A DNA stretch of 64,000 bases, taken from NCBI GenBank assembly GCA_030390025.1, contig CM059431.1, forward strand, positions 94,428,001 through 94,492,000, in the 5' to 3' direction. The notes below the pieces were generated by a model, which made no database searches, was not told the DNA's origin, and saw nothing but the letters and a program-made list of their open reading frames with translations. Source of the DNA: Squalus acanthias. Taxonomy: Eukaryota. This document shows, in pieces, positions 23,901 through 64,000 of the stretch (within the stretch, counting starts at the first letter, position 1; each line of letters begins with the position of its first letter). A program made the position numbers and the translations under genes.

Positions 23901-24332
23901 GGCTGAGGGAGGAGAGCAGTGAAGATATCTCGGAAATAAATTTTTTATGGTACTTAGGTTGGCGGTAGAGAACGAGGGGTAGAAATTAGGTCGCGCCCCA
24001 TTTGGGGCGCAAATATCGTCCGGACGCAAATATTAGCGCCTGGCGCTAATTATCGGCACTGACAGGAAACTTCACTTTTACCGCCCCGGGAGGTGAGTGG
24101 AGCGCTAAATTAGGCGCTGCACACCTCTCTTAAGGCGCAAAGGCCAAGGAGTGAGGCGCTAACTCAGCGCACGAGCGCAGCGCAGCTGCTGCCAGTTAGC
24201 GAGGGAACACAGACACAATGGCGCCGGACACTTCTTAAAGCGGGGGGGGCCACTTGCTCCCCAGCCACACCCTGCTCATTGCAGCCTTGAATCTCAGCCT
24301 GGAGAGACCTGTAATCCATTTTGCTGCCAAGC

Positions 24333-26210: not shown

Positions 26211-26504
26211 GAGGTGTGCCAAAATGCTGGTCATTTTTTTATTAAAGGCCGAGGTTCATGGTCCAACTTTTGTTTAGTGTTTTGGACATTATCTCCAGGT
26301 TGTGAGAACCAGTTATGTTATTGACTGTTTTTTTGTGTTTATTTCTATGAGTTTGTCATGAGGAATTGATACACACAGAGTTTGTAAAATAAATAAGTTT
26401 CTGTATTCAAAATATACATGGCTGGTGGTTGGAATTATTGGTGCCTTGGCCGGCTTAGGGGTTGCGTGCTGGGTTGATTAGTGTTTGTAGCAATGGCAGG
26501 GGCC

Positions 26505-31598: not shown

Positions 31599-33620
31599 AT
31601 GGGAACCATTCATTTCCTTTCACCATGGACCTCAGATTCAGATGAGGAGCATCCACGGCAGCAGCAGAACCAGGCAGCTCAGCAGCAACAGCAGCAGGAG
31701 CCCCAACCTCCTGCTCAGCCACCTGATGCTGCACAGGGCAGAAGGCGCCAGCGCATCGAGGCACCTCACCGCAGGAGATACCCCCGACAGAGGGTTTACA
31801 GACAGGGCATGAGCTACCTCAACATGAGTGAGCAGCAGTGCAAAGGAGGCTGAGACTTTCACGAGAGGTTGTCCGAGAGATCTGCAGACTGCTGCAGTAA
31901 GACCTGGTGCTCAGAGGAATAGGTGGACACCCCTTACCAGTGGCTATCAAAGTCACCACCGCACTCAACATTTTTGCCTCAGGCTCCTTCCAGGGATCAT
32001 CAGTAGACATCAGAGGCATCTCCGAGTCGGCCGCCCACAGTTGCATCACGCAGATTACTGATGCCCTTTTCGCAAAAGCGCACAACCACATCCAGTTCTC
32101 AAGGGATCACGCAAGTGTAACCGCGTGTTCGGTTGGCTTTGCAAATATGGCAGGCATGCCAATGCTGCAGGGCGTCATAGACTGCATACATGTGGCCCTT
32201 AGGTCACCCCATCATAACCCAGCTATCTTTGTCGACCGAAAGGGCTTCCACCCACTCAAAGTACAGCTGGTGTGTAACCACAAGAAGGAGTTTTTGCATG
32301 TTTGTGCCAAGTTCTGTTGTAGTTGCCATGACTCTTTCATCCTGCGGCACTCTAGTGTTCCTCCGCTTTTCAATCCACCAAACCAACTTAACGGATGGCT
32401 CCTTGGTGACAAAGACTACCCCCTGAAGAAGTGGCTAATGATGCCGATCAGGAGGCCAGCTAATGAGGCTGAGGAGCGCTACAACGCCAGCCACACTTCG
32501 ACCAGGTCCATCATCGAGCAAACCATTGGGTTGTTGAAGATGCGCTTCCGATGCCCTGCAGTATACACCATACAGGGTCTCCAGAATGGTCGTGGTCTGC
32601 TGTGCACTGCACAACATCGCACAGCGTCGTGGCTTGCAGCTTCCTGATGAGCAAGTGGCTCAGTTCAGGCCTACTCAAATGAGGATGAGGAGGAGGAGAA
32701 TGAGTAGGCTCAGGAGGAGGATGAGGAGGAGGATGAGCTGGAGGAGGAGGAGGAGGAGGAGGAGGAGGAGGAGGAGCAGGAGGAGGAGGAGGAGAAGGAG
32801 GATGAGCTGGAGGAGGCTCAGGAGGAGGAGGAGGAGGAGGAGGAGAAGGAGGAGCAGGAGGAGCAGGAGGAGGAGGAGCAGGAGGATGAGCTGGAGGAGG
32901 CTCAGGAGGAGGATGAGGAGGATGAGCTGGAGGAGGAGGAGGAGGAGGAGCAGGAGGAGGAGGAGGAGGTGGAGGAGCAGGAGGAGGAGGAGGAGCAGGA
33001 GGAGGAGGATGAGGAGGAGGAGGAGCTGGAGGAGGAGGAGGAGCAGGAGGATGAGCTGGAGGAGGCTCAGGAGGAGGATGAGGAGGATGAGCTGGAGGAG
33101 GAGGAGGAGGAGCAGGAGGAGGAGGAGGAGGAGGAGGAGGAGGATGAGGAGGAGGAGGAGCTGGAGGAGGAGGAGGAGGAGGAGCAGGAGGATGAGGAGG
33201 AGGAGGAGCTGGAGGAGGAGGAGGAGCAGGAGGAGGAAGAGCAGGAGGAGGAGGAGGATGGAGGAGGAGAGCAGAGGAGGAGGAGGAGGAGGGAGGAGGA
33301 GGATGAGGAGGAGGAGGAGCTGGAGGGAGGAGGAGGAGATGAGGAGAGCAGGAGGATGAGGAGGAGAGGAGCTGGAGGAGGAGGAGGAGCAGGAGGAGGA
33401 GGAAGAGCAGGAGGAGGAGGAGGATGAGCTGGAGGAGGAGGAGGAGGAGGAGCTGGAGGAGGAGGAGGAGCAGGAGGAGGAGGAAGAGCAGGAGGAGGAG
33501 GAGGATGAGCTGGAGGAGGAGGAGGAGGAGGAGCAGGAGGAGGACCGAGCACCGGTCTATCGACCAGCAGCAGCGGCAGCACACGAGCACATGGCTGCCC
33601 GTGATGCAAGGGATGAACTT
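31599..33620 (+). pseudogene. Harbinger transposase pseudogene with expanded poly-Glu tail
   Basis: ORFs 31368-31853, 31907-32647 and 32586 onward in shifting frames. Confidence 0.85.
32681..33545 (+). repeat. Imperfect (GAG)n expansion with higher-order blocks
   Basis: ~865 bp of GAG interspersed with GAT/CAG/CTG/GCT. Confidence 0.97.
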
Positions 33621-46794: not shown

Positions 46795-49569
46795 GGGCTC
46801 GATTTTAATAGCACTGAGGAGGCGGGTTTGGAGACGGGTTGGCAGCGAAAATCGAAAAAAATGGCTTCAGACTGCCAACTCGCCTCCATCCCGCCCACCC
46901 CCACCCCACCCGATTTTCGTGAGTGTCTGTTCAGCCGCTCCCAAACAGCCTGTTAACTGCCTGTCTAATCCTATTTTTATAGTGGTTTCCCATTTTCGTG
47001 CCTCTGGCTCCTGTTTCCCATCTTGTCAGAAACAGGCCAGGTTCAAGGAGACGAGTCGCTGGAGGACATGATTTGTAGTCATTGGTGCAGCACATCAAAA
47101 GCGCTCCTGTAACATGGCTGACATTCAAATGCAACAATTTTGTCGTTGGAGGTTTGGGATAAGATTTTGCAAATCTACTGACCTTGTGACTGTTCAAGCT
47201 GACAGCCATCTGCAGTGTGACCTGATTGGAATAATTTCAGGCCACTTCTAGTGTGTGCTTGAAAGCTACTTGCCTCAAGTGAAATCTATAGCAACGGGAT
47301 GGGAAACATTTACATCCTCTCATCCTGGTCATCAGATACTGAGGAAGAGCAGCCGCGGCAGCACCACAACCAGCCACAACAGCAGCACCAGCACCAGGAG
47401 CGCCAACCTCCTCCTCACCCACCTGATGATGTACAGGACGGAGGGCCTCAGCGCAGGGCTGCACCTCACTGCTGGAGATACCCCCAACATAGGGTTTACA
47501 GGCAGAGGATCAGCTTCCTCAGCATGACTGAGCAGCAGTGCCAAAGGAGGCTGAGACTTTCGAGAGATGTAGTCGCTGACATCTGCGCAATGCTGCACCA
47601 ACACCTGGAGCCCAGAGGAGCATGTGGACACTCCTTACCAGTTGCTGTCAAAGACACCACCGCACTCAACTTATTTGCTTCGGGCTCCTCCAGGGATCAG
47701 CTGCAGACATCAGCGGCATCTCCCAGTCGGCCGCACACACCTGCATCACGCAGGTCACCGATACCCTCTTTGCAAAGGCGCACAATTGCATCCACTTCTC
47801 CATGGATTGCCCAAGTGTGACGGCACATGTGGTTGGCTTTGCCAATATGGCAGGCTTGCCAATGGTGCAGGGTGTCATCGACCCCTATCACAACCCAACA
47901 GTATTTGTCAACCGCAAGGGCTTCCACTCCCTGAACGTCCAGCTGGTGTGTAACCACAGGAAGATCATCATGCACGTTTGCGCAAAGTACCCTGGCAGTT
48001 GCCATGACTCCTTCATCCTGCGCCAGTCTACTGTGCCTCAGCTCTTCCATCTGCCGGATGGCTTCTTGGCGACAAGGGCTATCCCCTGAAAAAGTGGCTT
48101 ATGACACCGATGAGGAGGCCATCAAACGATGCTGAGGAGCGGTACAATTTGAGCCACATATCCACCAGAAGCATCATCGAACAAACCATCGGCTTGCTCA
48201 AAATGCGCTTCCGATGCCTAGTCAGATCTGGAGGAGCCTTGCAGTATGCACCAGCCAGGGTGTCCAGAATCGTCGTGGTCTGCTGTGCCCTGCACAACAT
48301 TGCACAGCAGCACAGTTTAGTGCTGCCGCATGAACAAGTGGCTCAGCACACAGCCTCCTCGGAGGAAGAGGAAGAGGACGAGGAAGAGGATGAGGAAGAG
48401 GATGAGGAAGAGGATGAGGAGGAGGACGGGAAGTGATGCCTTGCGGGGCTGGATGTGGCCAATCCAGCAGCAGGTGACCACATTGCTGGCCGTCAGGCAA
48501 GGGATGCACTCATCCATGCCAGATTTGTGTAAGCTTACGCTTCAACCACAGGTGGCTGGCACATGGAGATGAATATAAGTCCGACATCCTCAAAACCCCA
48601 GGCATCATCTGTCTACTAAAGCGATCAGTGTCACCACCAACATTCTACATGGCATTTGCCCTGAGGCCTCACTCTTGAAATTCCATTTCCCAGAACACAG
48701 AGGCCACACTTTAGATCATTAAACCTTTTTCGACACTGAACCCATGTACGTCTGCACACAGACCTCGAACTCAACTCCTCAGCAATTTGCAGCCAAGCTG
48801 CCTTGGTTTGCTGAGGAGGCCTCCTCCTTCTGTTTCCACGGAAGAGGACCTCCTGACGTCCTCTAACTCCCTCCACAAGAGCATGGAGGGAGCCCTCATT
48901 GAACCTGGACGAAAATGAGAAGTCGCACAACACCAGGTTATAGTCCAACAGTTTTATTTGAAATCACGAGCTTTCGGAGCGCTGCTCTTTCGTCTTGACC
49001 TGACGAAGGAGCAGCGCTCCGAAAGCTCGTGGTTTCAAATAAAACTGTTGGACTATAACCTGGTGTTGTGCGACTTCTCATTTTTGTCCACCTCAGTCCA
49101 ACACCTGCATCTCCGCATCATTGAACCTGGGTGCAGCCTTAGTTTTTGGTGCTGCCATTCCTGCAGCAGCCAGCACCTTTAAGAGAAAAAAGCATTAATT
49201 TTACTCAGCCAATGATTGAAACACATGTGAAATATTTTTCATTTCTTAGTCACATACTACATTGATAGATTAAAAAATCATAAATGTCTTTCTGGAATAA
49301 TATTTCTAGATAAACAGAACCAAGCCATTCCAGTTACATTTTTTGCAAAGGGGACATGGCCCCTTTAAATTTTTACTCCAAAAACGCATCATCAGAGGCG
49401 AGAAACAGACACGCTCCAAGCAATTGCCTGGAAGGACCCGCACACCGGCTGTAACAAGGCCAATCAGGCAAAAATCGGAACTGCGGGCCGGCGGCATCTG
49501 AGAGCAGGTCTGAAAGCTGCCGAGCAGCGGGCCCGCCCACAACCCGCCTCCTCTATACAAATCCAGCCC
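46795..49569 (+). mobile_element. Harbinger with degenerate transposase (47299-48530) and truncated Myb
   Basis: TIR GGGCTCGATTT/AAATCCAGCCC; TSD aac/aat; [43 protein letters not shown] on -. Confidence 0.9.
48909..49117 (+). mobile_element. Palindromic Penelope-like insertion with hammerhead ribozyme core
   Basis: ~88-bp inverted arms 48907-48994/49002-49089; CTGACGA-A-GGAGC/GCTCC-GAAA at 49000-49024; 13-bp TSD tcattgaacctgg. Confidence 0.85.
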
Positions 49570-49988
49570 AATGTTTCAGTTCGATGCCCTTTCATCAGAA
49601 CACAATTTGCCCTTAACAAACCAGTGCTGGCTCTCCTTTACCTGGTCCATGCTTGCCCAAGTGGCTGTTAACTTTCTCCTGGATTATTGTTTCTAAAAGC
49701 TTCCCCACCAACGATGTTAAACTATAATTGCCAGGTTTATCCTCCGCCCCCTTTTTGAACAAGGGTGCAACATTTGCAATCCTCCTGTCTTCTGGCACCA
49801 GCCCTGTATCTAAGGAGGATTGGAAGATTGTGGCCAGCACCTCCGCAATTTCTACCCTTACTTCCCTCAGCAACCGAGGATGCATCCCAACCAGACTGGG
49901 TGACTTAAAGTACTGCCAGCCTTTCCAGTTCCTCCTCTGTATCTATTTTTATCTCATCCAGTATCCTGGCAACCTCATAGTTTACTGC

Positions 49989-51272
49989 TGCAGGATTCAC
50001 AAAATTCCGGGACCTCCTACTTAATGGACATGTGTCTAGAATTTAAAAGGGGGCTGTGTTGGACCTCTTGGAGGAGAAATGTGGACAGAAATATCTCACT
50101 ATCAGGCGCCTTTGGACTAAACTAGGGCCTATTGGATTGAGTTTGGACATTTTAAATTATATGCCGGGTCTGCACAGGAAAATGGGAATCCTTATAGGGC
50201 TGCTAACCCACCTGGGAGGCAGGCCCCCAGGGAGACATTAGCAGTCTAACAAAAGCCCACTTACCAGGGACCCAGAGACATAAATATTTTAATGGTTCTT
50301 AAAACGGCTATCCAGAAAAACCCTGGCATCAGCAAAACACACAATGGACAGTATCAAGACCTGATTACATTCTAACAGCACCATTCAAAAACCCCATCAA
50401 CACCTTTGGGAATCTTGTATCATGCTAATGCCCAATCAGCCCACCAACATTCTCACAAAGGGATCACATCAGAGTTGATCAGCCTGCCAAAATCGCACAA
50501 AAGGGAGTCATCTAGAATCAATTGTGCACCCGAGTTTTGGCGCAAAAGTTTAAGCAGCCTCTCGGGTATAACTGGGGGCTTGCTAGTAGCCAACGAGTAC
50601 CTGAACAGACGGGCTGAAGGGAGAGAGTGCCGGCAGCAGCAGCAGCAGCAGCAGCACACCGGAGCAGAAGAAACGTACCCGAGAACACGCTGGAAAGGCA
50701 CTTGGACTCTGGGCTTTTTGACTCTGGCTTTGAAACATCTAACTTGCCACACGAGGTTACAGCAACGCAACAAGAAAACCTAACAAGAAGCCTCGGAGTC
50801 ACTGAAAGATCAACCATCATCCAGCGCTGACTCTAGGAAAAACTTGTTTCCCATCAAATCGTCGACCAGTGCTAATACCGAAGACACCGCAAACAGCCAA
50901 GGAGTCCACAAGATTGAGGAGAGGGAAAGCAGTGTGCAACTGGTCTAAACTGTGGAGAAATCCTTTGCTGAGCATAGTCCCTGTAATTTCAGAGCCTAAC
51001 TTAGTTAGTGTAGTGGTGGGAGGTGGTTTTATTTTGTTTTGTTTTTTTTCCTCTCACTGCATAACCTCTGTACCTGTTGCGCAGGAGGTTTTGTTTATAG
51101 TTAATTCATGTGGTGTGCCATTTCTAAATGAAATATTTGTTCTTGCACCAAACAATTGTCTGCCGACATCTATCACATCCCCCAAATAATTCCAAGCTCC
51201 AGAACCAGGGAGTGGGACGATTCGAACCGTCAAGGACATTGTAAAAGGCCGACAAACCCACCACCCCCTACA
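49989..51272 (+). repeat. 5' LTR (family 1, ~1284 bp)
   Basis: TGCAGG...CCTACA followed by PBS; CAG tract at 50633-50655; polyA-like aatgaa at 51127. Confidence 0.88.
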
Positions 51273-51275
51273 TAA

Positions 51276-51293
51276 TGGCGAGCCAGGTAGGAG
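51276..51293 (+). promoter_or_regulatory. Primer-binding site, tRNA-Arg(ACG)-like
   Basis: TGGCGAGCCAGGTAGGAG matches 16/18 to the complement of the vertebrate tRNA-Arg 3' end CTCCTGGCTGGCTCGCCA (from memory), 3 nt after LTR CA. Confidence 0.8.
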
Positions 51294-52736
51294 CTTGGTA
51301 CAAAGGATGTGAGGATGTAGACTCGGTTCTGGTGGAAAGAACAAAAATGGAGGAAAGAATCTCCGAATATGTATTTAAGAAAGTAAATATTACCAAAAAG
51401 TGGGTCATAAGCCTGTTACGGGCTGAGCGTCCGGTGGACGCAGCTGCTAAGTGGACCGAGAGCAAGGACCATAAAAGGCCAATAGAGAAGGCTATTTGGT
51501 TGGTCTGCTACCAAAGACAGATCCAGTTGCTGGATAGGAAGGTCAAGAAATTGGTAGCAGAGCTCCGGGAATCCGAAGAGCGCTCAGCCGTAAGGGCTAT
51601 GGCAGGGGAGAAAATGTTTGAGGAATTAACTAAACAAAAGCATATCAGATTACAGCTAGAAGAGACCCACAGGAATAAGCAGGACTATTTCCAATGCCAA
51701 GTAACAGAGGCAAAGGGGAATGAGCTAGCGCTGCGGGGGGAAAATGCCTGCCTAACAAAAGTAATAAGAGAACAGGAGGAGAGGATACGGGATGCGCAGG
51801 CAGCCTATAAAGTAGCCAGTAGCAAGGGCTTTGGGGTGGAGGATCACGGGCCCTGTGAGGCCAAGATAAAAGGTTTAACCCAGGCCCTATCTAATGCTAA
51901 GGGGATGGTATGCCTGATAAGCCCAAGCGCTCCTAAGGGAGACATGCAGGAGCAAGGGGGAGTAGAGGGGGATAGAGTGGCAGAAAGGGACGTCCAACCA
52001 CCACCTGTAGCCCTACTGAGGTTAGTCCTGGCAGTATAGAGAGAGCACGGCACCGAGGAAATACAAGGGGTGTCAGGACCGGGGCCGATGTGCCCAATCC
52101 GACAACAAAAGTATGGTGCCAGCAACGCTTGTAAGGCTTCCAAAATTTGCAGATCCCCAAAACCTAAGGAAATAGGACTTTGGAACTACCTCAGTGATAA
52201 AAATGCATTTGGGCCTAACCTAAGAGACTGTAAGACCAAAAACCAAGTTTTGGCATTTTAAAAGCATGTCTGGGCCTGTGAAGGGAGAAAAGGCTGTGAA
52301 GGAAGTTGGGCTCGACCTCTGCAAACGCAGTTTTGGGTATTGCAGTTAAATTGCATTTCTTGGGGAATCGGGATGACCTCACTCAAGCCCCAGCAAGCAT
52401 TAACATTTTGACAATAGACCCTAGGAGGAGACAGCCCCACCCAAAACAACAGGTCCCATCAAACCGATTACAGAACCCATTAAAGACATGCATAAAGCAA
52501 ATATTCGATCGCAGTCCTAGACCCAGTCAAGAAACCCAACACATGAGGACAATTCAAACTCCGATTAAACAACAGATCGACAGGATGGAGCTATTTTGAA
52601 ACCACTTCACACATTTACAAAACCAGTTAACACGCTAGTAAAGTCGTTACTGTTAACGAGGTCTTACAATGACCGGGATTTGATTTTGTGTTGATAAGGC
52701 CACTTCAATTCAGTATAATTGAAGGCCCATCAAGCA

Positions 52737-53671
52737 TGCGGATGACACTAAATTGGGAGGCAGTGTGATCAATGAGGAGGATGCTAGGAGGCTACAGAGT
52801 GACTTGGACAGGTTGGGTGAATGGGCAAATGTATGGCAGATGAAGTACAATGTGGATAAATGTGAGGTTATCCACTTTGGTGGTAAAAATAGAGAGGCGG
52901 ACTATTACCTGAATGGTGGCAGATTAGGGAAAGGGGAGGTGCAATGAGACCTGGGCGTCATGGTACATCAGTCACTGAAGGTGGGAATGCAAGTGCAGCA
53001 GGCAGTCAAGAAAGCAAACGGAATGATGGCCTTCATAGTAAGGGGATTTGAGTACAGGAGTAGGGAGGTGATGCTGCAGTTGTACAGGGCCTTGGTGAGG
53101 CCACACCTGGAGAATTGTGCGCAGTTTTGGTCTCCTAACTTAAGGAAGGACATTCTTGCTATTGAGGGAGTGCAGCGAAGGTTCACTAGATTGATTCCTG
53201 GGATGGCCGGACTGACATATCAAGAAAGATTGCGTCAACTGAACTTGTATCCTCTGGAGTTCAGAAGAATGAGGGGGGATCTTATAGAGACATTTAAAAT
53301 CCTGACTGGTTTAGACAAATTAGATGCAGGCAGAATGTTCCCAATGTTAGGGAAAACTAGAACCAGGGGTCACAGTCTAAGGATTAAGGGGAAGCCATTT
53401 AAGACTGAGCTGAGGAGGAACTTCTTCACCCAGAGAGTGGTGAATCTATGGAATTCTCTTCCACAGAAGGTTGTTGAGGCCAGTTCGCTAAATATATTCA
53501 AAAGGGAGTTAGATATAACACTCACAACTAGGGGGATCAAGGGGTATGGCGAGAAAGCAGGAATGGGATACTGAGGTAGCATGTTCAGCCATGAACGCAT
53601 TGAATGGCGGTGCAGGCTCGAAGGACCGAATGGTCTACTCCTGTACCTATTTTCTATGTTTCTATGTTTCT
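52737..53671 (+). mobile_element. 5'-truncated CR1 (RT C-terminus plus tail)
   Basis: ADDTKLGG..LEFRRMRGDLIE; (TTTCTATG)n; TSD aagca. Confidence 0.93.
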
Positions 53672-54251
53672 AAGCAGTTCAGGAGTAACAACAGTTCAAG
53701 TTCAACAGAAGGCAGTTCTGCAGTTTTGGAGTTCAATTTGAAAAGCCTGTTTTTCAGCAGAAGTCAGTGTTGGAATTACAGAGTTCAGGAGAAGCAAGTT
53801 GGCCAGTTAAAGAAGACAGTTCAGTAAGAAGGGAGTTCTCCAGTTCTCCAGTCAAACAGTTCAAGTTCAACAAGCAGGCAGAAGGCAGTTTCCACAGTTC
53901 TGCAAGAAGGCAGTTCCACAACTCGGAAGAAGACAGTTTAAACAGAAAGCAGTTCAACAAAGAAAGCCAACAGCTCCAGAAGTAGGCCGACACGCAAGAA
54001 GAGACCAGAGCGACTGCCTCAGTGACCATCGGACACCTTGCGGCAACAAGGGCCTGACAAAACCTTTTACTCAAAGGACTCTAAACCCTAACTCTCAACT
54101 GTCAAGGATTCATTTGGTGAACATTATCCCTGGTTCTCCAGAGTCCAACCTAGCTAGTGAAGTGGGATTGGGAGGGGTGAAGTATTCTTCTAATGTTATT
54201 TCCCTCGCGTGTACCGAAGTGTTCCCCACCTTTAGAGTGTTAAGAGTGTTT

Positions 54252-55144
54252 GGGGTAAAAATTCACTTGGTTGCGCCACCCGTTAGCGCCTTAAGAGGGC
54301 GCTAATGGGGCGCAAAGCCGCTAACGCCCGGGCGCAGCGATGTTTGCGCCGCTCGAGAACTTAACTTGAGATTGTGCGGCGGCGCTAAAACTTACCGCTG
54401 CGACCACCTGCGCGCGCAGATTGTGACGTCATTCCATGGTGCAACGCCCTTGGGGCGCCCCGTAGCGGAAATTGAGTGGCGCCCCCTGCCTTACCGCCTG
54501 GCGCTTCCAACGACCAGAAGACTGGAACGCTATCAATCGCTGTGGGGCTGGGGGGGGCGCTATTTAAAGGGGGCCTCTTCCTGTCTTTTATTGTTGGTGA
54601 CATTTTTGAACTACGCATTCTGAGAGAGAGAGGGAGAGACTTCTGGAGCGATTCAACGTTATGTGAAGGAGTTTTGGGTACTGAGCAGCACTTTGCAGGT
54701 TCATTTTGATTTGCCATTCCTTGTATCGATTTAGCAGAGACCGTGGGAGCTGCACTCTGAGCTCTTTGCCTGGTGCTCTCCATTGTTCTTTCCAGCACAT
54801 TTGATGTGCAAGTCTCTCCAGGCCGAGATTCAAGGCAGCAATGAACAGGATGTGGATGGAAAGCAAGATTAACCATCCCCTTTAAGAACTGGCCCGTGCC
54901 ATTGTGTGTGTGTTCCATTGCTGACTGACATTACATGAGCTTCGCCAGCGCTCCGAGTTAGCGCCTCACTGCACGGCCTTTGCGCCTTAAGACAGGTGTG
55001 CAGCGCCTGATTTAGCGCTCCACTCACCTCCCGGGGCGGTAAAAGTGAAGTTTCCAGTCAGTGCCGATAATTAGCGCCAGGCGCTAATATTTGCGTCCGG
55101 ACGATATTTGCGCCCCAAATGGGGCGCGACCTAATTTCTACCCC
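54252..55144 (-). mobile_element. 893-bp Harbinger MITE, fifth copy
   Basis: TIRs; TSD ttt; empty site at ~29655 in the other LTR. Confidence 0.93.
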
Positions 55145-56267
55145 TTTGTGTTGTGTTTTACTTTCTTGAATAAAGATCGAAATTCTTTCATCAAAACCTG
55201 TTGTCTACTTCACCTTTGTTCACGACCCCCAAATAAGTTCAAGGTCTAGAACCAGGGACGTGGGAGCGATTCGAACCGCTCACTGAGTCAGAGGTGAAGC
55301 TGACCCTACCACACCACCCCCTACACGCTGGTCAGGGACAAGGGGCCCTGGAGAACCAATTTGTAATTCCCCATGGAACCCAGCAGCTCCGGGAAATGGT
55401 AGCTCATTTAGAAAAGTTAACCCCTCAAGGGGACCCCTCGTCCATTTTATGGACAGAGAGCAGGCAGCCGGTATAAACGGCTGCGATGAGGCCGAACAGG
55501 CTAAAATGCTGCTTTTCTCCTTGGATCGCAAGGTATACCAGGCCCTCTCTGCAGATAGCAAGAGGGAGCAGAGCACATATGCTGCGATCCAAGAAGAGGT
55601 GTTAGAGGTTCTGGGCCTAAATGACGGAAGTCCATTTTCCCGGGTCGAGAAGACCCTTTCAACAGGCAGGTGAAACCCCACAGGCTTTCGCAGACAGGCT
55701 GTGGCCCGTCTACGAGAGAGCATGTGGAGGAGATCTCGACCTGGAACCAACAGCTTGCTGGCTTCGCAGCCTAGTGGCTAACTGCCTGCCATGAGTAAAG
55801 GCTAAAGCCGAGCTGTGGTTCGACCCCAGAGACCCCACCGCTACCGAGGAGTCAGTGGTTAGACAGTTAACCCTGGCTTACCGGAATGGCAGAGGGGCCC
55901 CACAAAAAGGAAAGGTCCACGAGATCCGGCCCAGTAATTCCAGTAGAGAATGGCACCAGGAAGAGGGGAGCCCTTCCGACTCAAAGAGTACGTGCTATGG
56001 GTGCGGAAAAAGTGGGCACTGGCGGAAGAATTGCCGAAATCCTTGGAAAGATAGGGCAGAAAAGGAATCCTCACCCTTAAAGGATTCCCCTGCCACAAAA
56101 TGTTTAACAGCCCCGGCTCAAAGAGCTCAAAGAGCCGGGCCTGGGGCACACAATCCCTCTGGCAATTTCGATGAGATTGTGGCCGCGCTCCGAACTATGA
56201 TAATGGGCTCAGGGAAGGTAGCTGTAGCCACCGGCGCAACCTCACCTGCCCCACCTAATCCTGATCT

Positions 56268-57735
56268 ATGACTAGAGCCAGCGCAGCTGTATACCTGTGC
56301 CCTTTACACTATGATGAGTGGAAATGGCCTTGCGTGAAGATAGAGGTGGAGAGGGTTAAAGGGGCCTATCTGCTAGACACTGGTGCTTCCAGCACCATCG
56401 TCTATGCGGATAACCCAACCACCTCACCTCTGTCGAATGGAGTCCCGTATTCCTTGGTAGGATTCACAGGTAACGAGCAGGCTGGCTCGTTCTCCATCCC
56501 ACTATCAATTGACTTAGGAGCACTGCACACCAAGTGGAAGTGTGTCCTAATGAAGTGGGAGAAAGAGGGAACAGGGATCCTAGGTGCAGATTTCATGATT
56601 GGCCACAAGGTCCTAGTGGACCTCAGAAATCATTGCCTATGGGGAGCGGTATGCATGGGGGAAGAGAAAGAAGTTGTAGTGATCCCGGGGATACAAGGCA
56701 AAGGGACCCTATACACGGTAAAGCCAAAAGAAGGCTATGACCTCAAGTTACTGGTAAGCAGTACCCCCAGAGAGTATCAGGCGTTGGTGCGGGCAAATCT
56801 CGGTGCATTCGCCACCCACAAGCATGATTGTGGGAGGGTAACAGGGGTCGAGGTTAGCGTAGATGGGGATCCCATGGACAGGCCCCAAAAACAGTAGAAG
56901 TTCCCTAGGGAGGCGGAGGCAGACCTGGAGATTGCCCTGGGTTCCCTAGTCACACAGGGAGTGTTGAGGCCGATAGCCACCCACGTGAACTCACCACTTG
57001 GGCCGGTTAGGAAACCGGACAATTCATGGAGAGCCACTGTGGACTACCGGGTCCTCAACCGCAATATCCCAGCCTGTGCGCCCACGGTCGCTACAGTCGC
57101 CGACCTAATTGGAAGCGTACCAGCATCCGCGTGCACCTTGACGGTGCTGGATATCTCAAACGGTTTTTGGTCCATCCCGTTAAAGAGAGGGGACCAGTAC
57201 AAATTTGCTTTTACCTTCAAGGACCAGCAATACACGTGGAACTGCCTTCCCCAGGGGTTTCATAACAGCCGCAGTATATTCCACCAATGCATGGCCAATT
57301 GTCTAAAACACTTCAGCAAGCCCCAGCAGTTGGTACAGTATGTGGATGACCTGCTCCTATTCACCGACAAGGGTGAGGAGCACGGCCCACTGCTAGCTGA
57401 ACTGCTGGAACTGCTAAAGGAAGTGGGTTTTAAAGTCAACCCAAAGAAGGCGCAGATCGGCCAGCCAGAAGTAAAATTCCTGGGGCTGACTGTGTGCGCA
57501 GGCGAGAGGGCAATAGATAAGGCCAGGAGAGAAGCAATGCAGGAATTGCCAGCCCCTCGTTCTGTTACTGGAGTAAGACCTATCCTAGGGCTTACTGGTT
57601 ACTGCAGGGATTTCATTGAGGACTACGCAGCCACAGCAGCCCCCCTACTCCGACTCCTTCACAAAGGAGTGGAGTGGGACTGGGATAAAAGCAGCGGGGA
57701 GGCGTTCACTCAATTAAAAAAAAATCTGCAAACCA
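56268..57735 (+). pseudogene. pol: pol: aspartic protease plus reverse transcriptase (stop at 56895; RNase H and integrase core absent)
   Basis: YLLDTGAS, ILGADF; NSPLGPVRKPD..VDYRVLN, LDISNGFWSIP, LPQGFHNS, QYVDDLL, KFLG. Confidence 0.93.
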
Positions 57736-58673
57736 CGCACAAAGGGCAGCCGGGAGGGGTGAGCTGTCCTCAGGACAAGGGCCCCCAGCCGGCAGCCTCC
57801 GACTGTGGGGGAACCGCAGGGGTAGTGGGGGCAGACTCACAGGCCGTACAAGTAGGGGCCGTGAGCTGCATTGCTGGAGGGGCTGTCCCACCTATAGTTT
57901 GGGACTCGTACGAGCCCCAGGTACTCGGAGGCCTTAGAAGGACCTTCCGCACCCCGCAGCCCAGGTTCCCATGGTCCCCTACGCTATGATACAGACTGCT
58001 CCGTCCTGAGAGGGACTCCAGGAAGCAAAGACTGTGGAAGGCAGGAGACCGCTTACGGGCAAAAGGTCACAGGCCTGCAGTGCCCGACTGTAGGGAACCG
58101 GCAGGGGAGGCAGCAGCCCCACCAGTCGTAGCCTCTGAAGGGAACGAGCCCACAACAGAGGTAACAGCCAGGCACTGAACCCGATTATGGGAAGCCTGTG
58201 GGGGAAGTAGCAGCCCCACCGGACATAGGTTCCGACTATGGGGAACCAACAGGGGAGATAGTAGTCCCACTAGCTTTAGAGTTAGGCACGGTTCACTGCA
58301 CAGAGGGAAGGACCATCCCGCCTATGGTATGGGACTCGGAAAAACCCCCGAGAACCGACCCCGTGAGAAGGAGTAGCCGAGTCTCACGGCCTAGGACACC
58401 ATGGTCCCTGGTACAAATGCTGCCCAGATACCGCAGAAGGCACAGGACATCCAGGATGTAACCTGGCCACCCGGAGACGGTTGGCGCTGTATATAGCTTT
58501 GGTTTAAGTTAGTATCTAAGTTAAAAGGGTTTTGAGTTTTAAGTTGGTAGTTTGGTTTGGATTTTAGAGCTTTCAAGTTTAAATTTGAATAAGATTACCT
58601 TGTAGCCAAGCCAGAGAACATTTTCTCAAAGGCAAGGCTGTCGGTTTGTGACCCCTCCAGGAAAAACCACAAG

Positions 58674-59451
58674 ATGATGGAAGGAATCCTGTTCCTACTT
58701 GCCCTACTGGGGACAAGCACCGGCAAAAGAGGTGACGTCGAGGAGTCCCGGATCTTTGGGTGCTCGGGTGGAAGAGCGCCCATCATTACTACCGGGGATG
58801 GTACTCGAGGCGCGAGTGAGGTCACCATCTATCACCACCAGGGAAGGTGGCCAGGATGGCTGGGGTCCAATTCAACCAAATACCCCAGCCAGGCCGGGTT
58901 TACTTACGGGGAGGTGTCCCTCCCATGCCCAAGGGTACAAATTGTTGCTTCCCGGGTTAGGGTGACGGAAGGAAAGAGGGTGTGTTTGAGTTGTAAAGGA
59001 CGGATTCCCCTGGGTAGGTGGTGGTGGCTCAGAAAGCTGAGCAAGGACGCGGGGGACCAGGAAGTGGCGTGGGTACGACTTAACAATGATACCATTACGA
59101 GTGCCCCAGACAGAGTGGAGAATATAGGGATCATTCAGGGAGGAGCACACATTCGTTTCACAGCGGTCCCACCTTATGTCATAAAGTGGGAGCACGCTAT
59201 GACAGGTACTGACCTCTCCGGGTGCCGGAGCCGGGGTGCACATGTAATACTGTGCCCCCAGCACTTGAATGCCTATGCAAGATCACAATGCAGGTTTAAA
59301 GCTGCTGGCCCACGGCCTATCAACTGCACTACGGAGGTGATGGCCCAAGACCACGTTCCTCCACAAGTGGCATACGTAGAGGGTGCGACATATTGTGTCA
59401 CCAACAGTGCGCCCCAATATCAACACGGATCGTACATCTGGTGCATATGCT
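58674..59451 (+). pseudogene. env: env-like glycoprotein, truncated by the inversion
   Basis: Splice acceptor ccctccag at 58653-58660; signal peptide MMEGILFLLALLG; NxS/T sites; Ig-like and Cys-rich segments. Confidence 0.7.
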
Positions 59452-61848
59452 ACAGCGTATGTGCTCTACCCCCTCTTGCTATCTGCAGAGAGGGCCTGGT
59501 ATACCTTGCGATCCAAGGAGAAAAGCAGCAGTTTAGCCTGTTCGGCCTCATCGCAGCCGTTTAAACCGGCTGCCTGCTCTCTGTCCATAAAATGGACCGA
59601 GGGGTCCCCTTGAGGGGTTAACTTTTCTAAATGAGCTCCCATTTCCCGGAGCTGCTGGGTTCCATGGGGAATTACAAATTGGCTCTCCAGGGCCCCTTAT
59701 CCCTGACCACCGTTGCTGGCACCATACTTTTGTTGTCGGATCGGGTACATCGGCCCCGGTCCTGACACCCCTTGTATTTCCTCGGTGCCGTGCTCTCTCT
59801 ATACTGCCAGGACTATCCTCGGTAGGGCTACAGGTGGTGGTTGGACGTCTCTTTCTGCCACTCTATCCCCCTCTACTCCCCCTTGCTCCTGCATGTCTCC
59901 CTTAGGAGCGCTTGGGCTTATCAGGCATACCATCCCCTTAGCATTAGATAGGGCCTGGGTTAAACCTTTTATCTTGGCCTCACAGGGCCCGTGATCCTCC
60001 ACCCCGAAGCCCTTGCTATTGGCTACTTTATAGGCTGCCTGCGCATCCCGTATCCTCTCCTCCTGTTCTCTTATTACTTTTGTTAGGCAGGCATTTCCCC
60101 CCGCAGCGCTAGCTCATTCCCCTTTGCCTCCGTTACTTGGCATTGGAAATAGTCCTGCTTATTCCTGTGGGTCTCTTCTAGCTGTAATCTGATATGCTTT
60201 TGTTTAGTTAATTCCTCAAACATTTTCTCCCCTGCCATAGCCCTTACGGCTGAGCGCTCTTCGGATTCCCAGAGCTCTGCTACCAATTTCTTGACCTTCC
60301 TATCCAGCAACTGGATCTGTCTTTGGTAGCAGACCAACCAAATAGCCTTCTCTATTGGCCTTTTATGGTCCTTGCTCTCGGTCCACTTAGCAGCTGCGTC
60401 CACCGGACGCTCAGCCCGTAACAGGCTTATGACCCACTTTTTGGTAATATTTACTTTCTTAAATACATATTCGGAGATTCTTTCCTCCATTTTTGTTCTT
60501 TCCACCAGAACCGAGTCTACATCCTCACATCCTTTGTACCAAGCTCCTACCTGGCTCGCCATTATGTAGGGGGTGGTGGGTTTGTCGGCCTTTTACAATG
60601 GCCTTGACGGTTCGAATCGTCCCACTCCCTGGTTCTGGAGCTTGGAATTATTTGGGGGATGTGATAGATGTCGGCAGACAATTGTTTGGTGCAAGAACAA
60701 ATATTTTATTTAGAAATGGCACACCACATGAATTAACTATAAACAAAACCTCCTACGCAACAGGTACAGAGGTTATGCAGTGAGAGGAAAAAAAACAAAA
60801 CAAAATAAAACCACCTCCCACCACTACACTAACTAAGTTAGGCTCTGAAATTACAGGGACTATGCTCACCAAAGGATTTTTCCACAGTTTAGACCAGTTA
60901 CACACTGCTTTCCCTCTCCTCAATCTTGTGGACTCCTTGGCTGTTTGCGGTGTCTTCGGTATTAGCACTGGTCGACGATTTGATGGGAAACAAGTTTTTC
61001 CTAGAGTCAGCGCTGGATGATGGTTGATCTTTCAGTGACTCCGAGGCTTCTTGTTAGGTTTTCTTGTTGCGTTGCTGTAACCTCGTGTGGCAAGTTAGAT
61101 GTTTCAAAGCCAGAGTCAAAAAGCCCAGAGTCCAAGTGCCTTTCCAGCGTGTTCTCGGGTACGTTTCTTCTGCTCCGGTGTGTTGCTGCTGCTGCTGCTG
61201 CTGCCGGCACTCTCTCCCTTCAGCCCGTCTGTTCAGGTACTCTTTAGCTACTAGCAAGCCCCCAGTTATACCCGAGAGGCTGCTTAAACTTTTGCGCCAA
61301 AACTCGGGGGCACAATTGATTTTAGATGACTCCCTTTTGTGCGATTTTGGCAGGCTGATCAACTCTGATGTGATCCCTTTGTGAGAATGTTGGTGGGCTG
61401 ATTGAGCATTAGCATGATACAAGATTCCCAAAGGTGTTGATGGGGTTTTTGAATGGTGCTGTTAGAATGTAATCAGGTCTTGATACTGTCCATTGTGTGT
61501 TTTGCTGATGCCAGGGTTTTTCTGGATAGCCGTTTTAAGAACCATTAAAATATGTATGTCTCTGGGTCCCTGGTAAGTGGGCTTTTGTTAGACTGCTAAT
61601 GTCTCCCTGGGGGCCTGCCTCCCAGGTGGGTTAGCAGCCCTATAAGGATTCCCATTTTCCTGTGCAGACCCGGTATATAATTTAAAATGTCCAAACTCAA
61701 TCCAATAGGCCCTAGTTTAGTCCAAAGGCGCCTGATAGTGAGATATTTCTGTCCACATTTCTCCTCCAAGAGATCCAACACAGCCCCCTTTTAAATTGCA
61801 GACACATGTCCATTAAGTAGGAGGTCCCGGAATTTTGTGAATCCTGCA
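59452..61848 (-). repeat. Inverted copy of LTR (60565-61848), PBS and 5' gag
   Basis: Reverse complement of 49989-52129 plus 55330-55585; same ORFs appear mirrored (e.g. 51275+ vs 60562-). Confidence 0.97.
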
Positions 61849-62265
61849 CTGCAGCTTTGGGAAAGTCCTCTTCCTTGGTAAACACCAAATTACTAATTTA
61901 ATATTTTAATACCTCAGCCATGCCTTCTGCCTCCACATCAATGCATCCTATTCAGCCCCACCGCTCCTCTGACAACCCATTTACTGTTTATTGTACCTAT
62001 AGCAGACTGTTGGATTCCCTTTTATGTTAGCTGCCAATCTATTCTCGTACTGTCTGTTTGCCCCTCTTATTTCCTTTTTCACTTCTCCTCTGTACTTTTT
62101 ATATTCAGCCTGATTCTCCCTTGTGTTATCTTGCTGACATCTGTCATACGTCCCCATTTTCTGCTTCATCCTACTCTTTAACTCCTTCGTCAACCAGGGA
62201 GCTCTGACTTTGGTTGCCCACCCTTTCCCACTTATGGGAATGTATTTAGACTGTACCCGAACCAT

Positions 62266-62402
62266 ACAATAGCAAAATACTGCGGGTGCTGGAAATCTGA
62301 AATAACAAGAGAAAATGCTGGAAACACTCAGCAGGCCAGGCAGCATCGAGGAGAGAGAAACAGAGTTAACGTTTCTGGTCGAGGACCCTTCGTCAGAACT
62401 GG
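62266..62402 (-). mobile_element. Penelope-like pLTR with intact hammerhead core
   Basis: Minus-strand CTGACGAAGGGTCCTCGACCAGAAACGTTAAC (62365-62396). Confidence 0.8.
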
Positions 62403-62427
62403 ACAAGGTTAAAGAGAGATTTTTAAG

Positions 62428-62852
62428 CATAAGAACATAAGGAATAGGAGCAGGAGTAGGCCATTCGGTCCTTCGAGCCTGATCTGCCATTCAATGAGAT
62501 CATGGCTGATCTTCTGCCTTAACTCCATTCACCGGCCCTATCGCCATATCCCTTGATGCCCTTACTAGTCAGAAATCTATCGACTTCTATTTTGAATATA
62601 CGCAATGACTGAGCCTCCACAGCCCTCTGGGGTAGAGAATTCCAAAGATTCATCACCCTCTGTGTGAAGAAATTTCTTCTCATCTCAGTCCTGAATGGCC
62701 TACCCTTGATCTTGAGGCTGTGGCCCCTGGTTCTAGAATCCCCAGCCAAGGGAAACATTCTCCCAGCATCCATCCTATCAAGCCCTGTAATAATTTTGTA
62801 TGCTTCAATGAGATCCCCTCTTATTCTTCTGAATTCAAGAGAATACAGGCAA
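62428..62852 (-). mobile_element. CR1 3' end
   Basis: LYSLEFRRIRGDLIEAYKI; (TTCTTATG) tail. Confidence 0.9.
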
Positions 62853-64000
62853 GTGCAAGGACAGGGATAGGGAGGAGGGGAGGAAAGAAGCCCTGTGGAA
62901 TGCACATCCTGTGCCATGTGAGAAGTCCTGGATGCTTCTCATGGCCTGGACGACCACGCGTACGGGAAGTGTCGCCAACTGCAGCAACTCGAGCTCCGGG
63001 TTTCGAGGCTGAAAGTTACGTAGATAGCACGTTTTTGGAGGTGGTCACCTCGCAGCTTAAGAGTATGCAGACAGAGAGGGAATGGGTGACCGACAGACAG
63101 AAGAGGAGGACCAGGCAGGTAGTGCAGGATTCCCCTGAGTGCATCTCGCTTGCTAACCAGTATTCAGTTCTGGATACTGGTGAGGGCGATGGTTCCTCTG
63201 GGGAGTGCAGCCAGAGCCAAGTCCATGGCACCATGGGTGGCTCAGCTGCACAGATGGGGAGGAAGAAGAGCAATAGTGGTAGGGGATTCAATAGTTAGGA
63301 GAATAGACAGGCGTTTCTGCGGCCGCAGACGTGACTCCAGGATGGTATGTTGCCTTCCTGGTGCCAGGGTCAAGGATGTCACTGAACGGCTGCAGGACAT
63401 TCTGAGGGGGGAGGGTGAACAGCCAGAGGTCGTGATCCACATCGGTACCAACCACATAGGTAGAGAGGGCTGAGATCCTGCAGGCAGATTTTTGGGAGCT
63501 AGGAAACAGATTCAAAAGCAGGACCTCAAAGGTAGTAATCTCCGGATTACTCCCAGTGCCATGTGCTAGTGAGTACAGGAATAGGAGGATAGAACAGATG
63601 AATGCGTGGCTGGAGAGATGGTGCAGGAGGGAGGGTTTTAGATTCCTGAGGCATTGGGACCGTTTCTGGGGGAGGTGGGACCTGTACAAGCCGGACAGGT
63701 TGCACCTCAACAGGAACCAATATCCTCGCGGCAGGGTTTGCTAGTGCTGTTGGGGAGGGTTTAAACTAGCTTGGCAGGGGGATGGGAACCTGAGAGTGGA
63801 TTCAAAAGGGAGAGAAGCAAAGCTGGAAATGGAAGGCAGAAAATTAGTAAGCGAGTTTAGAAGGCAGAGGAAACAAGGGCTAGGAAATAGACAACAAGGG
63901 AGTTTGGCAGTGCTAAATGGTATATACTTCAACGCAAGGAATCTAGGGAATAAAGCAAATGAGCTGAAGGCATGTGGGATTATGATATTATAGCTATTAC
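62853..64000 (+). mobile_element. CR1 5' region: ORF1 (SGNH esterase) and start of ORF2
   Basis: IVVGDSIVR..CCLPGARVKD..VVIHIGTN; PDRLHLN; YFNARNL. Confidence 0.9.

What the first reader, a model, noticed from the sequence alone, without database searches (positions are those of the whole stretch)
49989..61848. Retrovirus-like provirus integrated with INVERTED LTRs (two U3 ends) and a clean 4-bp TSD
Seen: LTR-PBS-gag-PR-RT-env', then, instead of PPT plus 3' LTR, a reverse-complement copy of gag'-PBS-LTR (~2.4-kb arms, very few mismatches). The element starts TG, ends CA and is flanked by ctgc/ctgc, and the host CR1 reads straight through. Known: retroviral LTRs are direct repeats; DIRS have inverted ends but use a tyrosine recombinase and make no TSD; Ginger DNA transposons use Gypsy-type integrase with TG..CA TIRs and 4-bp TSDs. 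Inference: two independent insertions, or recombination between nested copies, would not leave an inverted LTR at the TSD, so a copy-back-like molecule with two U3 att ends was probably integrated in trans. It is either a rare aberrant cDNA or a mobile non-autonomous 'TIR provirus' family.
Basis: partly seen in the sequence, partly recalled or inferred. Interest (0 to 1): 0.9.

Follow-up and report, generated by a model that had tools for sequence, protein, structure and literature searches.

The report
Endogenous retrovirus inserted with inverted LTRs
A defective endogenous retrovirus in what looks like a shark genome carries its two long terminal repeats head-to-head instead of in parallel yet has a normal 4-bp target duplication, so the viral integrase most likely joined two copies of the same (U3) end, a rare accident previously seen in cultured cells.

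Summary
At 49989-61848 a 1285-bp LTR, a PBS-like site, gag, protease, RT and a truncated env are followed at 59452|59453 by a reverse-complement copy of the first ~2.4 kb (LTR, PBS, gag'). The element starts TG, ends CA and is flanked by ctgc/ctgc. The closest homologue of the host CR1 aligns without a gap across the site only if one ctgc copy is kept. Contigs from two samples and two studies of the same organism bridge the inner junction, which argues against an assembly fold-back. The right LTR/host junction was not seen bridged.

New points:
- The left arm is split by a later solo LTR (52130-55325) with its own 4-bp duplication.
- pol has no RNase H or integrase.
- env has an internal gap.
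- Junction depth hints at a single locus, not a family.

Best reading (about 0.8): one integrase-catalysed event, supplied in trans, used two U3 ends of an aberrant cDNA. I cannot tell a reverse-transcriptase template jump from two partial cDNAs ligated together.

There is a laboratory precedent (Colicelli and Goff 1988, title only seen), and a guppy ERV with an inverted 5' LTR has been noted in print. It is a clean natural example of a known rare event; interest is moderate.

The parts
49985..49988 (.). left copy of the 4-bp target-site duplication (ctgc)
   Evidence: one-copy model fits the CR1 homologue P0004 best
49989..51273 (+). left LTR, 1285 bp, starts TGCAGG and ends CCTACA; carries a (CAG)n run near 50636-50658
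   Evidence: The start is defined by the arm boundary. The end is inferred from its likeness to the end of solo LTR X and from the TGG-starting PBS-like site 3 nt further on. Another LTR copy in run X5 stops matching at 61847 of the mirrored LTR (record 32).
51277..51294 (+). PBS-like 18-mer TGGCGAGCCAGGTAGGAG
   Evidence: its position 3 nt after the LTR end is typical. The tRNA match was not tested (no tRNA gene in the window).
51274..52129 (+). leader and first gag-region ORF (264-aa ORF 51245-52039, no Pfam match)
52130..55325 (+). later insertion X: solo LTR of a related family (TGTAAGG...CCCTACA), flanked by CGCT/CGCT. It carries a nested CR1 3' fragment (52737-53671, duplication AAGCA) and a TIR element (54253-55144, duplication TTTG).
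   Evidence: The right arm holds the empty site (CGGT). A second X copy at 29477-30827 has duplication TGTG, with empty paralogous sites near 5015 and 14041.
55330..56271 (+). rest of gag, with a CCHC zinc knuckle
   Evidence: zf-CCHC E 5.3e-4, 20.4 bits against a cut-off of 20.8; same frame as PR and RT
56265..56897 (+). aspartyl protease
   Evidence: gag-asp_proteas E 1.3e-4, below the curated cut-off; LLDTGAS motif in the ORF
56898..57740 (+). reverse transcriptase (fingers, palm, thumb), YVDDLLL motif
   Evidence: RVT_1 E 5.5e-34; PDB matches to foamy-virus PR-RT at 1.7e-44 and MLV-type RT at 1e-43, aligned to about ORF residue 280
57741..58670 (+). unassigned stretch where RNase H and integrase would be expected; none found
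   Evidence: 0 Pfam families in the three + frames of 57600-58700 at E 0.1 or less. Only RVT_1 and protease in the three + frames of 55330-59452 at E 0.01 or less.
58671..59452 (+). env', with a signal-peptide-like start. The N-terminal part matches the start of relatives' glycoprotein and the rest matches a much later part (internal gap near 59112). It is cut at the junction.
59452..59453 (.). inner junction J1 (env' joined to reverse-complement gag), blunt, no shared bases
   Evidence: bridged by contigs in X1 (297 nt), X3 (166 nt, 0 differences) and X5 (252 nt, 2 differences; other sample and study)
59453..60563 (-). inverted copy of leader, PBS-like site and gag up to the position matching 55584, without insertion X
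60564..61848 (-). inverted LTR, 1285 bp, 17 substitutions against the left LTR; its U3 edge faces the host
61849..61852 (.). right copy of the 4-bp target-site duplication (ctgc)
49306..49988 (-). host CR1 (ORF2, start of the RT region), downstream part
61853..62270 (-). host CR1, upstream part, continuous with the left flank

Best explanation
A defective retroviral cDNA was inserted into a host CR1 element in one integrase-catalysed, concerted reaction in which both viral ends were U3 ends. The cDNA lacked RNase H, integrase, the 3' part of env and the 3' LTR, and came from a gamma/epsilon/foamy-like lineage.

The substrate consisted of a normal left part (LTR, PBS, gag, PR, RT, env') joined tail-to-tail to a second, shorter left part (LTR, PBS, first ~1.1 kb after the LTR). 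Each outer end was therefore the blunt U3 terminus that normally forms when DNA synthesis copies a plus strand to its 5' end.

The joint between the two parts arose in one of two ways. Either a reverse-transcriptase end-to-end template jump onto another plus-strand DNA ('copy-back'), or host end-joining of two incomplete cDNAs held in one pre-integration complex. Integrase came from a helper virus. The U3 edge (TGCAGG) and the U5 edge (reverse complement TGTAGG) are alike at 5 of 6 positions, so two U3 ends would make an acceptable pair.

Shown: the structure, the termini, the 4-bp duplication, the continuity of the host CR1, and the reality of the inner junction in two samples.

Inferred: that integrase did it, the way the substrate arose, and the helper.

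Later events were point mutations, insertion of a related provirus in the left gag that collapsed to solo LTR X, and two further insertions inside X.
For: 1. Geometry. The two arms are inverted (2148 nt at 98.6% plus 261 nt at 96.2%) and no direct LTR is present.

2. Ends. The ends are exact TG...CA LTR edges flanked by ctgc/ctgc. The chance of a 4-bp match is 1 in 256.

3. Host continuity. CR1 homologue P0004 (77% identity to the left-flank ORF) aligns as one ungapped block across the site only when one repeat copy is kept. Scores were 108 with one copy, 77 with two and 87 with none. Five host residues lie between the anchors, against five in P0004. In 11 more distant homologues the spacer between the VFT motif and the I.IT.EE motif is 16-24 residues; the host has 20 (counted by eye).

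4. Duplication size. The related LTR X shows 4-bp duplications at two insertion sites. The one at 29477-30827 is checked against paralogous empty sites and the one inside this element against the uninterrupted right arm. This family's integrase therefore makes 4-bp duplications.

5. No own integrase. No Pfam integrase or RNase H match in any + frame of the internal region, so integration was in trans.

6. Junction in reads. J1 is bridged by contigs in 3 of 3 runs of organism A, from 2 samples and 2 studies. The X5 contig differs at 2 letters, as another individual's allele would.

7. Precedent. The title of Colicelli and Goff 1988 describes this outcome for Moloney MLV.
Against: - The outer junctions rest on the assembly plus the duplication and CR1 argument.
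- CR1 continuity is shown at codon level with a 77%-identical homologue, not with an orthologous empty site. No other CR1 copy in the window spans the site at DNA level.
- The junction shows no microhomology and no added bases, so it does not reveal its own mechanism.
- The inner 255 nt of the arms are more diverged (9 of 255) than the rest (28 of 2141; binomial p = 0.007). A single identical template does not predict this unless arm-to-arm gene conversion or error-prone synthesis is added.
- Contigs with left-arm letters but without insertion X exist (X3 record 19 at depth 7.6; X19 record 10). So there is either an X-free allele or a further gag copy, and the 'only two copies' reading is not secure.
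- The 1988 paper itself could not be read.
Confidence: 0.8

Rival explanations
1. Two separate integrations hit the very same 4-bp target, producing a tail-to-tail inverted dimer. The unstable palindrome centre was then lost by a large asymmetric deletion running from env of the left copy to gag of the right copy.
For: It gives the same final structure and the same flanks. Inverted tandems of LTR retrotransposons attributed to double insertion are described in Drosophila (passages of PMC5932611). The blunt junction fits end-joining.
Against: It needs two independent hits on the same phosphodiester bonds by a family whose gag is present at roughly two copies (weak). It also needs a deletion of roughly 2 kb on one side and at least 4 kb on the other. 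No trace remains of either 3' LTR.
Confidence: 0.07
2. Two proviruses inserted close together in opposite orientation, and a deletion removed everything between env of one and gag of the other. On this view the ctgc match is chance. Other post-integration rearrangements fall in the same class, such as replication template switching or a one-ended integration finished by host enzymes.
For: A single deletion between inverted neighbours yields inverted outer 5' LTRs. Host-mediated completion of one-ended integrations can append viral DNA in either orientation (passages of PMC5041404).
Against: - The flanks abut at codon resolution and stay in frame only with one repeat copy.
- The repeat has the length this family makes.
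- The host-completed ends described in PMC5041404 give large duplications or deletions of host DNA, not a short normal repeat.
Confidence: 0.05
3. Assembly artefact: a fold-back chimera or a false join inside the repeated LTR.
For: The right LTR/host junction was not seen bridged. The LTR has many copies (contig depths 170-410 against 10-30 at J1).
Against: - J1 is bridged in two samples of two studies.
- The arms differ at 37 positions and by a 3.2-kb insertion, unlike a fold-back of one read.
- Right-arm-specific letters next to J1 are reproduced by X3 contigs with 0 differences.
- A false join would not recreate a 4-bp duplication and an in-frame CR1.
Confidence: 0.03
4. A propagating non-autonomous 'TIR provirus' family, moved as DNA or RNA by a retroviral-type integrase.
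For: Two identical att ends, TG...CA termini and a 4-bp duplication resemble Ginger-type elements (recalled features; the GingerRoot paper appeared only in the search listing).
Against: J1 contigs have about half the depth of arm contigs in 3 of 3 runs of organism A (18.9 vs 30.3; 10.1 vs 21.4; 29.9 vs 57.1). No cover at 59430 in the related organism H (contigs show presence, not absence). No second copy in the 64-kb window.
Confidence: 0.03

Closest known systems
Moloney MLV provirus with LTRs in inverted orientation, integrated through two U3 sequences (Colicelli and Goff, J Virol 1988; 62:633)
   Same: By its title it has inverted LTRs and both host junctions made by U3 ends. MLV makes 4-bp duplications (recalled), as here. 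The RT here is about as close to MLV-type RT (1e-43) as to foamy RT (1.7e-44).
   Different: That was a cell-culture isolate; that it came from a virus mutated at one att end is my recollection only. This one is a germline copy present in two samples of a wild species. I saw only the title in a reference list; the paper is not held, so details such as its inner structure are unchecked.
Guppy foamy-like ERV PrERV-1 with an inverted 5' LTR (PMC5210030)
   Same: An endogenous fish retrovirus whose LTRs are not parallel (passages read).
   Different: In the passages read, the authors suggest recombination and call it unclear. Those passages mention no flanking duplication or junction analysis. Here both are documented.
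Aberrant one-ended integrations of ASLV and HIV-1 (PMC5041404 and the work it cites)
   Same: The viral DNA is truncated at one end and joined to further viral DNA in either orientation (passages read).
   Different: In those cases the second end is joined by host enzymes and brings large host duplications, deletions or inversions. Here both ends are exact LTR edges with a normal 4-bp duplication.
Ginger-type DNA transposons (integrase-related transposase, TIRs)
   Same: TG...CA inverted termini and a 4-bp duplication (recalled features).
   Different: No integrase-like gene lies inside. The arms are LTR plus gag of a retrovirus. It appears to be a single copy.
DIRS retrotransposons
   Same: Inverted terminal repeats around gag and RT (described in abstracts listed).
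   Different: DIRS use a tyrosine recombinase and make no target duplication. Here no recombinase domain was found, a 4-bp duplication is present, and the RT is retrovirus-like.
Inverted tandems of LTR retrotransposons in Drosophila (two Rover insertions; PMC5932611)
   Same: Two copies of one LTR element in inverted orientation at one place, explained by double insertion (passages read).
   Different: Those are two whole elements with a palindromic target motif between them. Here there is one composite with no inner LTRs and one shared duplication.

Membership tests
Endogenous retrovirus (LTR, gag, pro, pol, env provirus) | LTR bounded by TG...CA | tested here: met
   TGCAGG...CCTACA, 1285 bp
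Endogenous retrovirus (LTR, gag, pro, pol, env provirus) | primer-binding site next to the 5' LTR | tested here: inconclusive
   A TGG-starting 18-mer lies 3 nt after the LTR in both arms. No tRNA was available to test complementarity. Its likeness to a tRNA-Arg end is recalled only.
Endogenous retrovirus (LTR, gag, pro, pol, env provirus) | reverse transcriptase of retroviral type | tested here: met
   RVT_1 5.5e-34; best PDB matches are foamy and MLV-type RT
Endogenous retrovirus (LTR, gag, pro, pol, env provirus) | gag with nucleocapsid knuckle, and protease | tested here: inconclusive
   zf-CCHC 20.4 bits (cut-off 20.8) and protease 22.9 bits (cut-off 28.2). The motifs are visible in the ORFs.
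Endogenous retrovirus (LTR, gag, pro, pol, env provirus) | RNase H and integrase | tested here: not met
   None in the three + frames of 55330-59452. It is a deleted, non-autonomous copy.
Endogenous retrovirus (LTR, gag, pro, pol, env provirus) | two LTRs as direct repeats, with a polypurine tract before the 3' LTR | tested here: not met
   0 direct repeats of 40 nt or more. The second LTR is inverted, and no 3' LTR junction exists.
Provirus integrated through two U3 ends (Colicelli and Goff type) | LTRs in inverted orientation with the U3 edge at both host junctions | tested here: met
Provirus integrated through two U3 ends (Colicelli and Goff type) | target duplication of the size normal for the virus, with host flanks otherwise contiguous | tested here: met
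   ctgc/ctgc. The related LTR X makes 4-bp duplications at two sites. The CR1 homologue aligns ungapped with one copy kept.
Ginger-like integrase DNA transposon | element-encoded integrase-like transposase, or membership of a multi-copy non-autonomous family | tested here: not met
   No rve domain. The junction is at about single-copy depth (weak).
DIRS | tyrosine recombinase and absence of a target duplication | tested here: not met
   No recombinase domain; a 4-bp duplication is present

The most novel reading that the evidence does not exclude
The inverted-LTR provirus is more than a dead accident. With two identical att ends it could be a one-step route from an LTR retroelement to a TIR element that an integrase can move as DNA, which would bear on the proposed origin of Ginger-like transposons. 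Alternatively, transcription from the left LTR through the inverted arm would give a hairpin RNA of about 1 kb that the host keeps as a source of small RNAs against this virus family. Nothing here tests either idea. Junction depth argues against mobility in this genome, and no RNA data were examined.
Probability: 0.04. Interest if true: 0.85.

Novelty: new member of a known kind. Interest (0 to 1): 0.5.

Why it matters
It is a clean natural record that a retroviral integrase can pair two U3 ends in the germline of a vertebrate and still make a normal target duplication. I know this otherwise only from a 1988 cell-culture isolate and from test-tube assays (recalled).

It shows the kind of aberrant cDNA that reverse transcription and host repair can hand to integrase. 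It warns ERV annotators that pipelines looking for direct LTR pairs will miss or mis-split such copies.

It also gives a concrete model for how an LTR element could acquire terminal inverted repeats in one step. In addition, the 2.4-kb arms form a palindrome that can serve as a small natural test of arm-to-arm gene conversion.

Tried and rejected
- Whole-genome search: no genome is held for this window, so I could not count genome-wide copies of J1 or the termini, or look for an empty site.
- DNA-level CR1 comparison within the window: no other CR1 copy spans the insertion site, so I used protein homologues.
- Read laying. No listed contig bridged 61848|61849 (table cut; 86866 pieces not shown), so the right host junction is unverified by reads. 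No cover was seen at 59430 in organism H (X19). Contigs cannot show absence, so I make no claim of absence. Contig depths are a poor copy measure and are used only as a hint.
- Autointegration: the inversion circle it gives has inverted LTRs, but its junctions would place an LTR edge next to internal sequence. J1 has no LTR edge, so I rejected it by reasoning.
- Homologous recombination between inverted proviruses or nested copies: it leaves the outer LTRs direct, so I rejected it by reasoning.
- Microhomology at J1: none. A GCATATG 7-mer occurs on both sides about 12 nt apart; I treat it as chance.
- Tandem repeats in the element: one unrelated 24-bp array inside insertion X.
- tRNA genes in the window, to test the PBS: none.
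- Earlier findings of this scan: nothing relevant in 4 look-ups.
- Literature: 7 searches. Apart from the 1988 title and the guppy remark, I found no description of a natural inverted-LTR provirus with a target duplication. The library lacks most subscription journals, so this does not show that none is in print. PMC250582 is not held.

Full report
**The observation**

The window holds two inverted arms. They are 49989-52136 against 61848-59702 (2148 nt, 98.6% identity) and 55325-55584 against 59713-59453 (261 nt, 96.2%). No direct repeat of 40 nt or more occurs anywhere in 48000-64000, so there is no ordinary 3' LTR.

The element begins TGCAGG at 49989 and ends CCTGCA at 61848. The four host bases on either side are ctgc. 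The next bases outward are not complementary, so the boundary is exact. The window has no N.

**Why the arms look split**

The left arm is interrupted at 52130-55325 by a 3196-bp insertion, here called X. X starts TGTAAGG, ends CCCTACA and is flanked by CGCT on both sides. The right arm carries the uninterrupted site (CGGT, one substitution).

A second copy of X lies at 29477-30827 on the minus strand. It is flanked by TGTG, and two paralogous segments of the window (near 5015 and 14041) show the empty site. X is therefore a solo LTR of a related family that makes 4-bp duplications.

The last 15 bases of X match 51259-51273. This places the end of the element's own LTR at 51273 (1285 bp). Three bases later comes a TGG-starting 18-mer in the position of a primer-binding site.

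X itself carries two nested insertions:
- a CR1 3' fragment at 52737-53671, with duplication AAGCA;
- an 892-bp element with terminal inverted repeats at 54253-55144, with duplication TTTG.

With X removed, the arms are 2141 + 255 nt against 2396 nt. They differ at 28 and 9 positions respectively.

**What the element encodes**

From 55332 to 59450 one frame reads through almost all of the rest of gag, protease, RT and env, with a few stops.

Pfam results:
- RVT_1 at E 5.5e-34;
- an aspartyl protease at E 1.3e-4, below the curated cut-off;
- a CCHC knuckle at E 5.3e-4, below the curated cut-off.

The RT matches solved foamy-virus PR-RT (1.7e-44) and MLV-type RT (1e-43) about equally. The alignments stop near ORF residue 280.

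No RNase H or integrase domain is found in any + frame of the internal region. The copy could not have integrated itself.

The ORF from 58671 has a signal-peptide-like start and is homologous to nine proteins. Three are named, all 'uncharacterized protein' of a sawshark (E 5e-55 to 1e-22). Its first ~147 residues match the start of those glycoproteins. The next ~110 match a much later part, so there is an internal gap near 59112. Likeness to the relatives runs to about 59447, a few bases before the junction.

The host is therefore probably a cartilaginous fish. I did not pursue which one.

**The inner junction**

At 59452|59453 env' meets the reverse complement of gag at the position matching 55584. 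The two partners share no bases at the joint and there are no extra bases.

Logan contigs of four runs were laid on 58900-62400. The junction is bridged with at least 31 letters on both sides in 3 of the 3 runs of organism A:
- X1: 297 nt, 6 differences;
- X3: 166 nt, 0 differences;
- X5: 252 nt, 2 differences.

X1 and X3 are one sample. X5 is another sample and another study. A simple fold-back artefact is thus very unlikely.

Contigs across the junction have depths of 18.9, 10.1 and 29.9. Contigs from the gag part of the arm have 30.3, 21.4 and 57.1, and LTR contigs have about 170-410. This is what one junction, two arms and a dozen or more LTR copies would give. The tool warns that contig depth is a poor copy measure, so I treat it as a hint only.

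Results against a tidy picture:
- No listed contig bridged the right LTR/host junction. The table was cut.
- Contigs with left-arm letters but without X exist in X3 (147 nt, depth 7.6) and in organism H (X19, 359 nt, running on past 59453). So there is an X-free allele or a further gag copy.

Another LTR copy in X5 (record 32) stops matching at 61847 and runs on into different sequence. This independently marks the LTR edge.

**Is the 4-bp repeat a true target duplication?**

The flanks belong to one CR1 on the minus strand. The right flank ends ...VFTKEEDFPKAA. The left flank begins, in the frame that continues it, VNYEVARILDEIKID....

A search of 1.84 billion representative proteins with the left-flank ORF gave 6054 hits at E 0.001 or less, of which the best 150 were listed. 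Of these 150, 12 hit both flanks by tblastn. In 11 of the 12 (P0016 left out) the spacer between the conserved VFT and I.IT.EE motifs is 16-24 residues. The host has 20 with one repeat copy (counted by eye).

The closest homologue, P0004 (77% identity), is decisive at codon level:
- It aligns to the end of the right flank through VFTKEED.
- It aligns to the left flank from its second residue onwards.
- Five host residues lie in between, against five in P0004.

A model of the empty site scores 108 as one ungapped block with one repeat copy. It scores 77 with two copies and 87, with gaps, with none. The flanks were therefore adjacent and ctgc was duplicated. This is not nucleotide-level proof; an orthologous empty site would give that.

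**Mechanism**

Homologous recombination between nested or neighbouring proviruses leaves the outer LTRs direct. Autointegration circles place an LTR edge against internal sequence, which J1 lacks. Host-completed one-ended integrations give large host duplications or deletions rather than a normal short repeat (passages of PMC5041404).

What remains is a concerted integrase reaction on two U3 ends. The U3 edge TGCAGG and the U5 edge (reverse complement TGTAGG) agree at 5 of 6 positions, so a U3/U3 pair should be acceptable to the enzyme.

Each outer end is the kind of blunt end made when synthesis copies a PPT-primed plus strand to its 5' end. The substrate was therefore two 'left halves' joined tail to tail. 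I see two routes and cannot separate them:
- A growing plus strand reached a break in env and jumped end-to-end onto another plus-strand DNA that ended in gag (copy-back).
- Two incomplete cDNAs in one complex each gave a U3 end, and host end-joining closed the distal ends.

The blunt joint fits both. I put about 0.8 on the integrase U3/U3 event as a whole.

Rivals:

| Rival | Odds |
|---|---|
| Two successive hits on the same 4 bp followed by a central deletion | about 0.07 |
| Neighbouring inverted proviruses plus a deletion with a chance repeat, or other rearrangements | about 0.05 |
| Assembly artefact | about 0.03 |
| A mobile family | about 0.03 |

**Age and later history**

The differences between the arms are mostly transitions, and several are at CpG sites. 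This is as expected for decay after insertion.

The outer 2141 nt differ by 1.3% and the inner 255 nt by 3.5% (binomial p = 0.007). The inner piece is cut off from the rest by X. A possible reading (inference only) is that arm-to-arm gene conversion has kept the outer part more alike, and that the element is older than 1.3% suggests. That would also leave time for X and its two nested insertions.

**Comparison with what is known**

- The title of Colicelli and Goff, J Virol 1988; 62:633 describes an integrated Moloney MLV provirus with LTRs in inverted orientation, integrated through two U3 sequences. I saw it only as a reference-list entry in PMC5778647; the paper is not held.
- PMC5210030 notes in passing a guppy foamy-like ERV with an inverted 5' LTR and calls its origin unclear (passages).
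- PMC5932611 describes inverted tandems of whole LTR elements in Drosophila (passages).
- That integrases pair U3/U3 donors in test-tube assays is my recollection and was not checked here.

Against DIRS and Ginger-type elements the membership tests fail. There is no tyrosine recombinase, no integrase gene and no sign of a family.

**Verdict**

This is a real and unusually clean natural example of a known rare accident of retroviral integration.

Noticed in passing
window 29477-30827 (-) and 52130-55325 (+): Two copies of solo LTR X (96-97% alike), each with a 4-bp duplication. Paralogous segments near 5015 and 14041 keep the empty site of the first copy.
   Followed up: yes
window 54253-55144; also 1261-2157, 2670-3567, 10285-11181, 11696-12593, and parts at 17327-17719, 20974-21501, 23975-24340, 27791-28188: An ~890-bp element with ~12-bp terminal inverted repeats (GGGGTA...TACCCC) and a TTTG duplication where it sits in X. 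It has many copies in the window, some spaced about 1.41 kb apart as if in short arrays.
   Followed up: partly
window 52737-53671: A CR1 3' fragment nested in X, with an AAGCA duplication and an (ATGTTTCT)n tail.
   Followed up: partly
window 1-8307 vs 9024-17333; 17336-21495 vs 23976-28185; 8305-10283 vs 21486-23461: Large direct segmental duplications (97.9%, 93.3% and 93.9% identity). The window lies in a repeat-rich, recently duplicated region.
   Followed up: no
window 32681-33544: A block with many offset self-matches at 83-87% identity, indicating a tandem array.
   Followed up: no
window 48906-49090: A near-perfect hairpin with 89-nt arms (97% complementary) and a 7-nt loop, about 0.9 kb upstream of the element.
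   Followed up: no
window 59017-59367: The later part of env' attracts contig depths in the thousands to hundreds of thousands in all four runs. This env segment, or something derived from it, is highly repeated in these genomes.
   Followed up: no
window 51125-51130 vs 60707-60712: The AATAAA signal near the end of the LTR is intact only in the right (inverted) LTR. The left LTR has AATGAA.
   Followed up: partly
window 51275-52039: A 255-codon ORF, charged and apparently coiled-coil-like by eye, begins at an ATG overlapping the PBS-like site. It has no Pfam match. It is kept in both arms except for a 1-nt gap in the right arm.
   Followed up: partly
window 57900-57990 vs 58340-58440: Two similar short peptide stretches (PPIVWDSYEP... 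and PPMVWDSEKP...) suggest an internal duplication in the unassigned stretch between RT and env.
   Followed up: no
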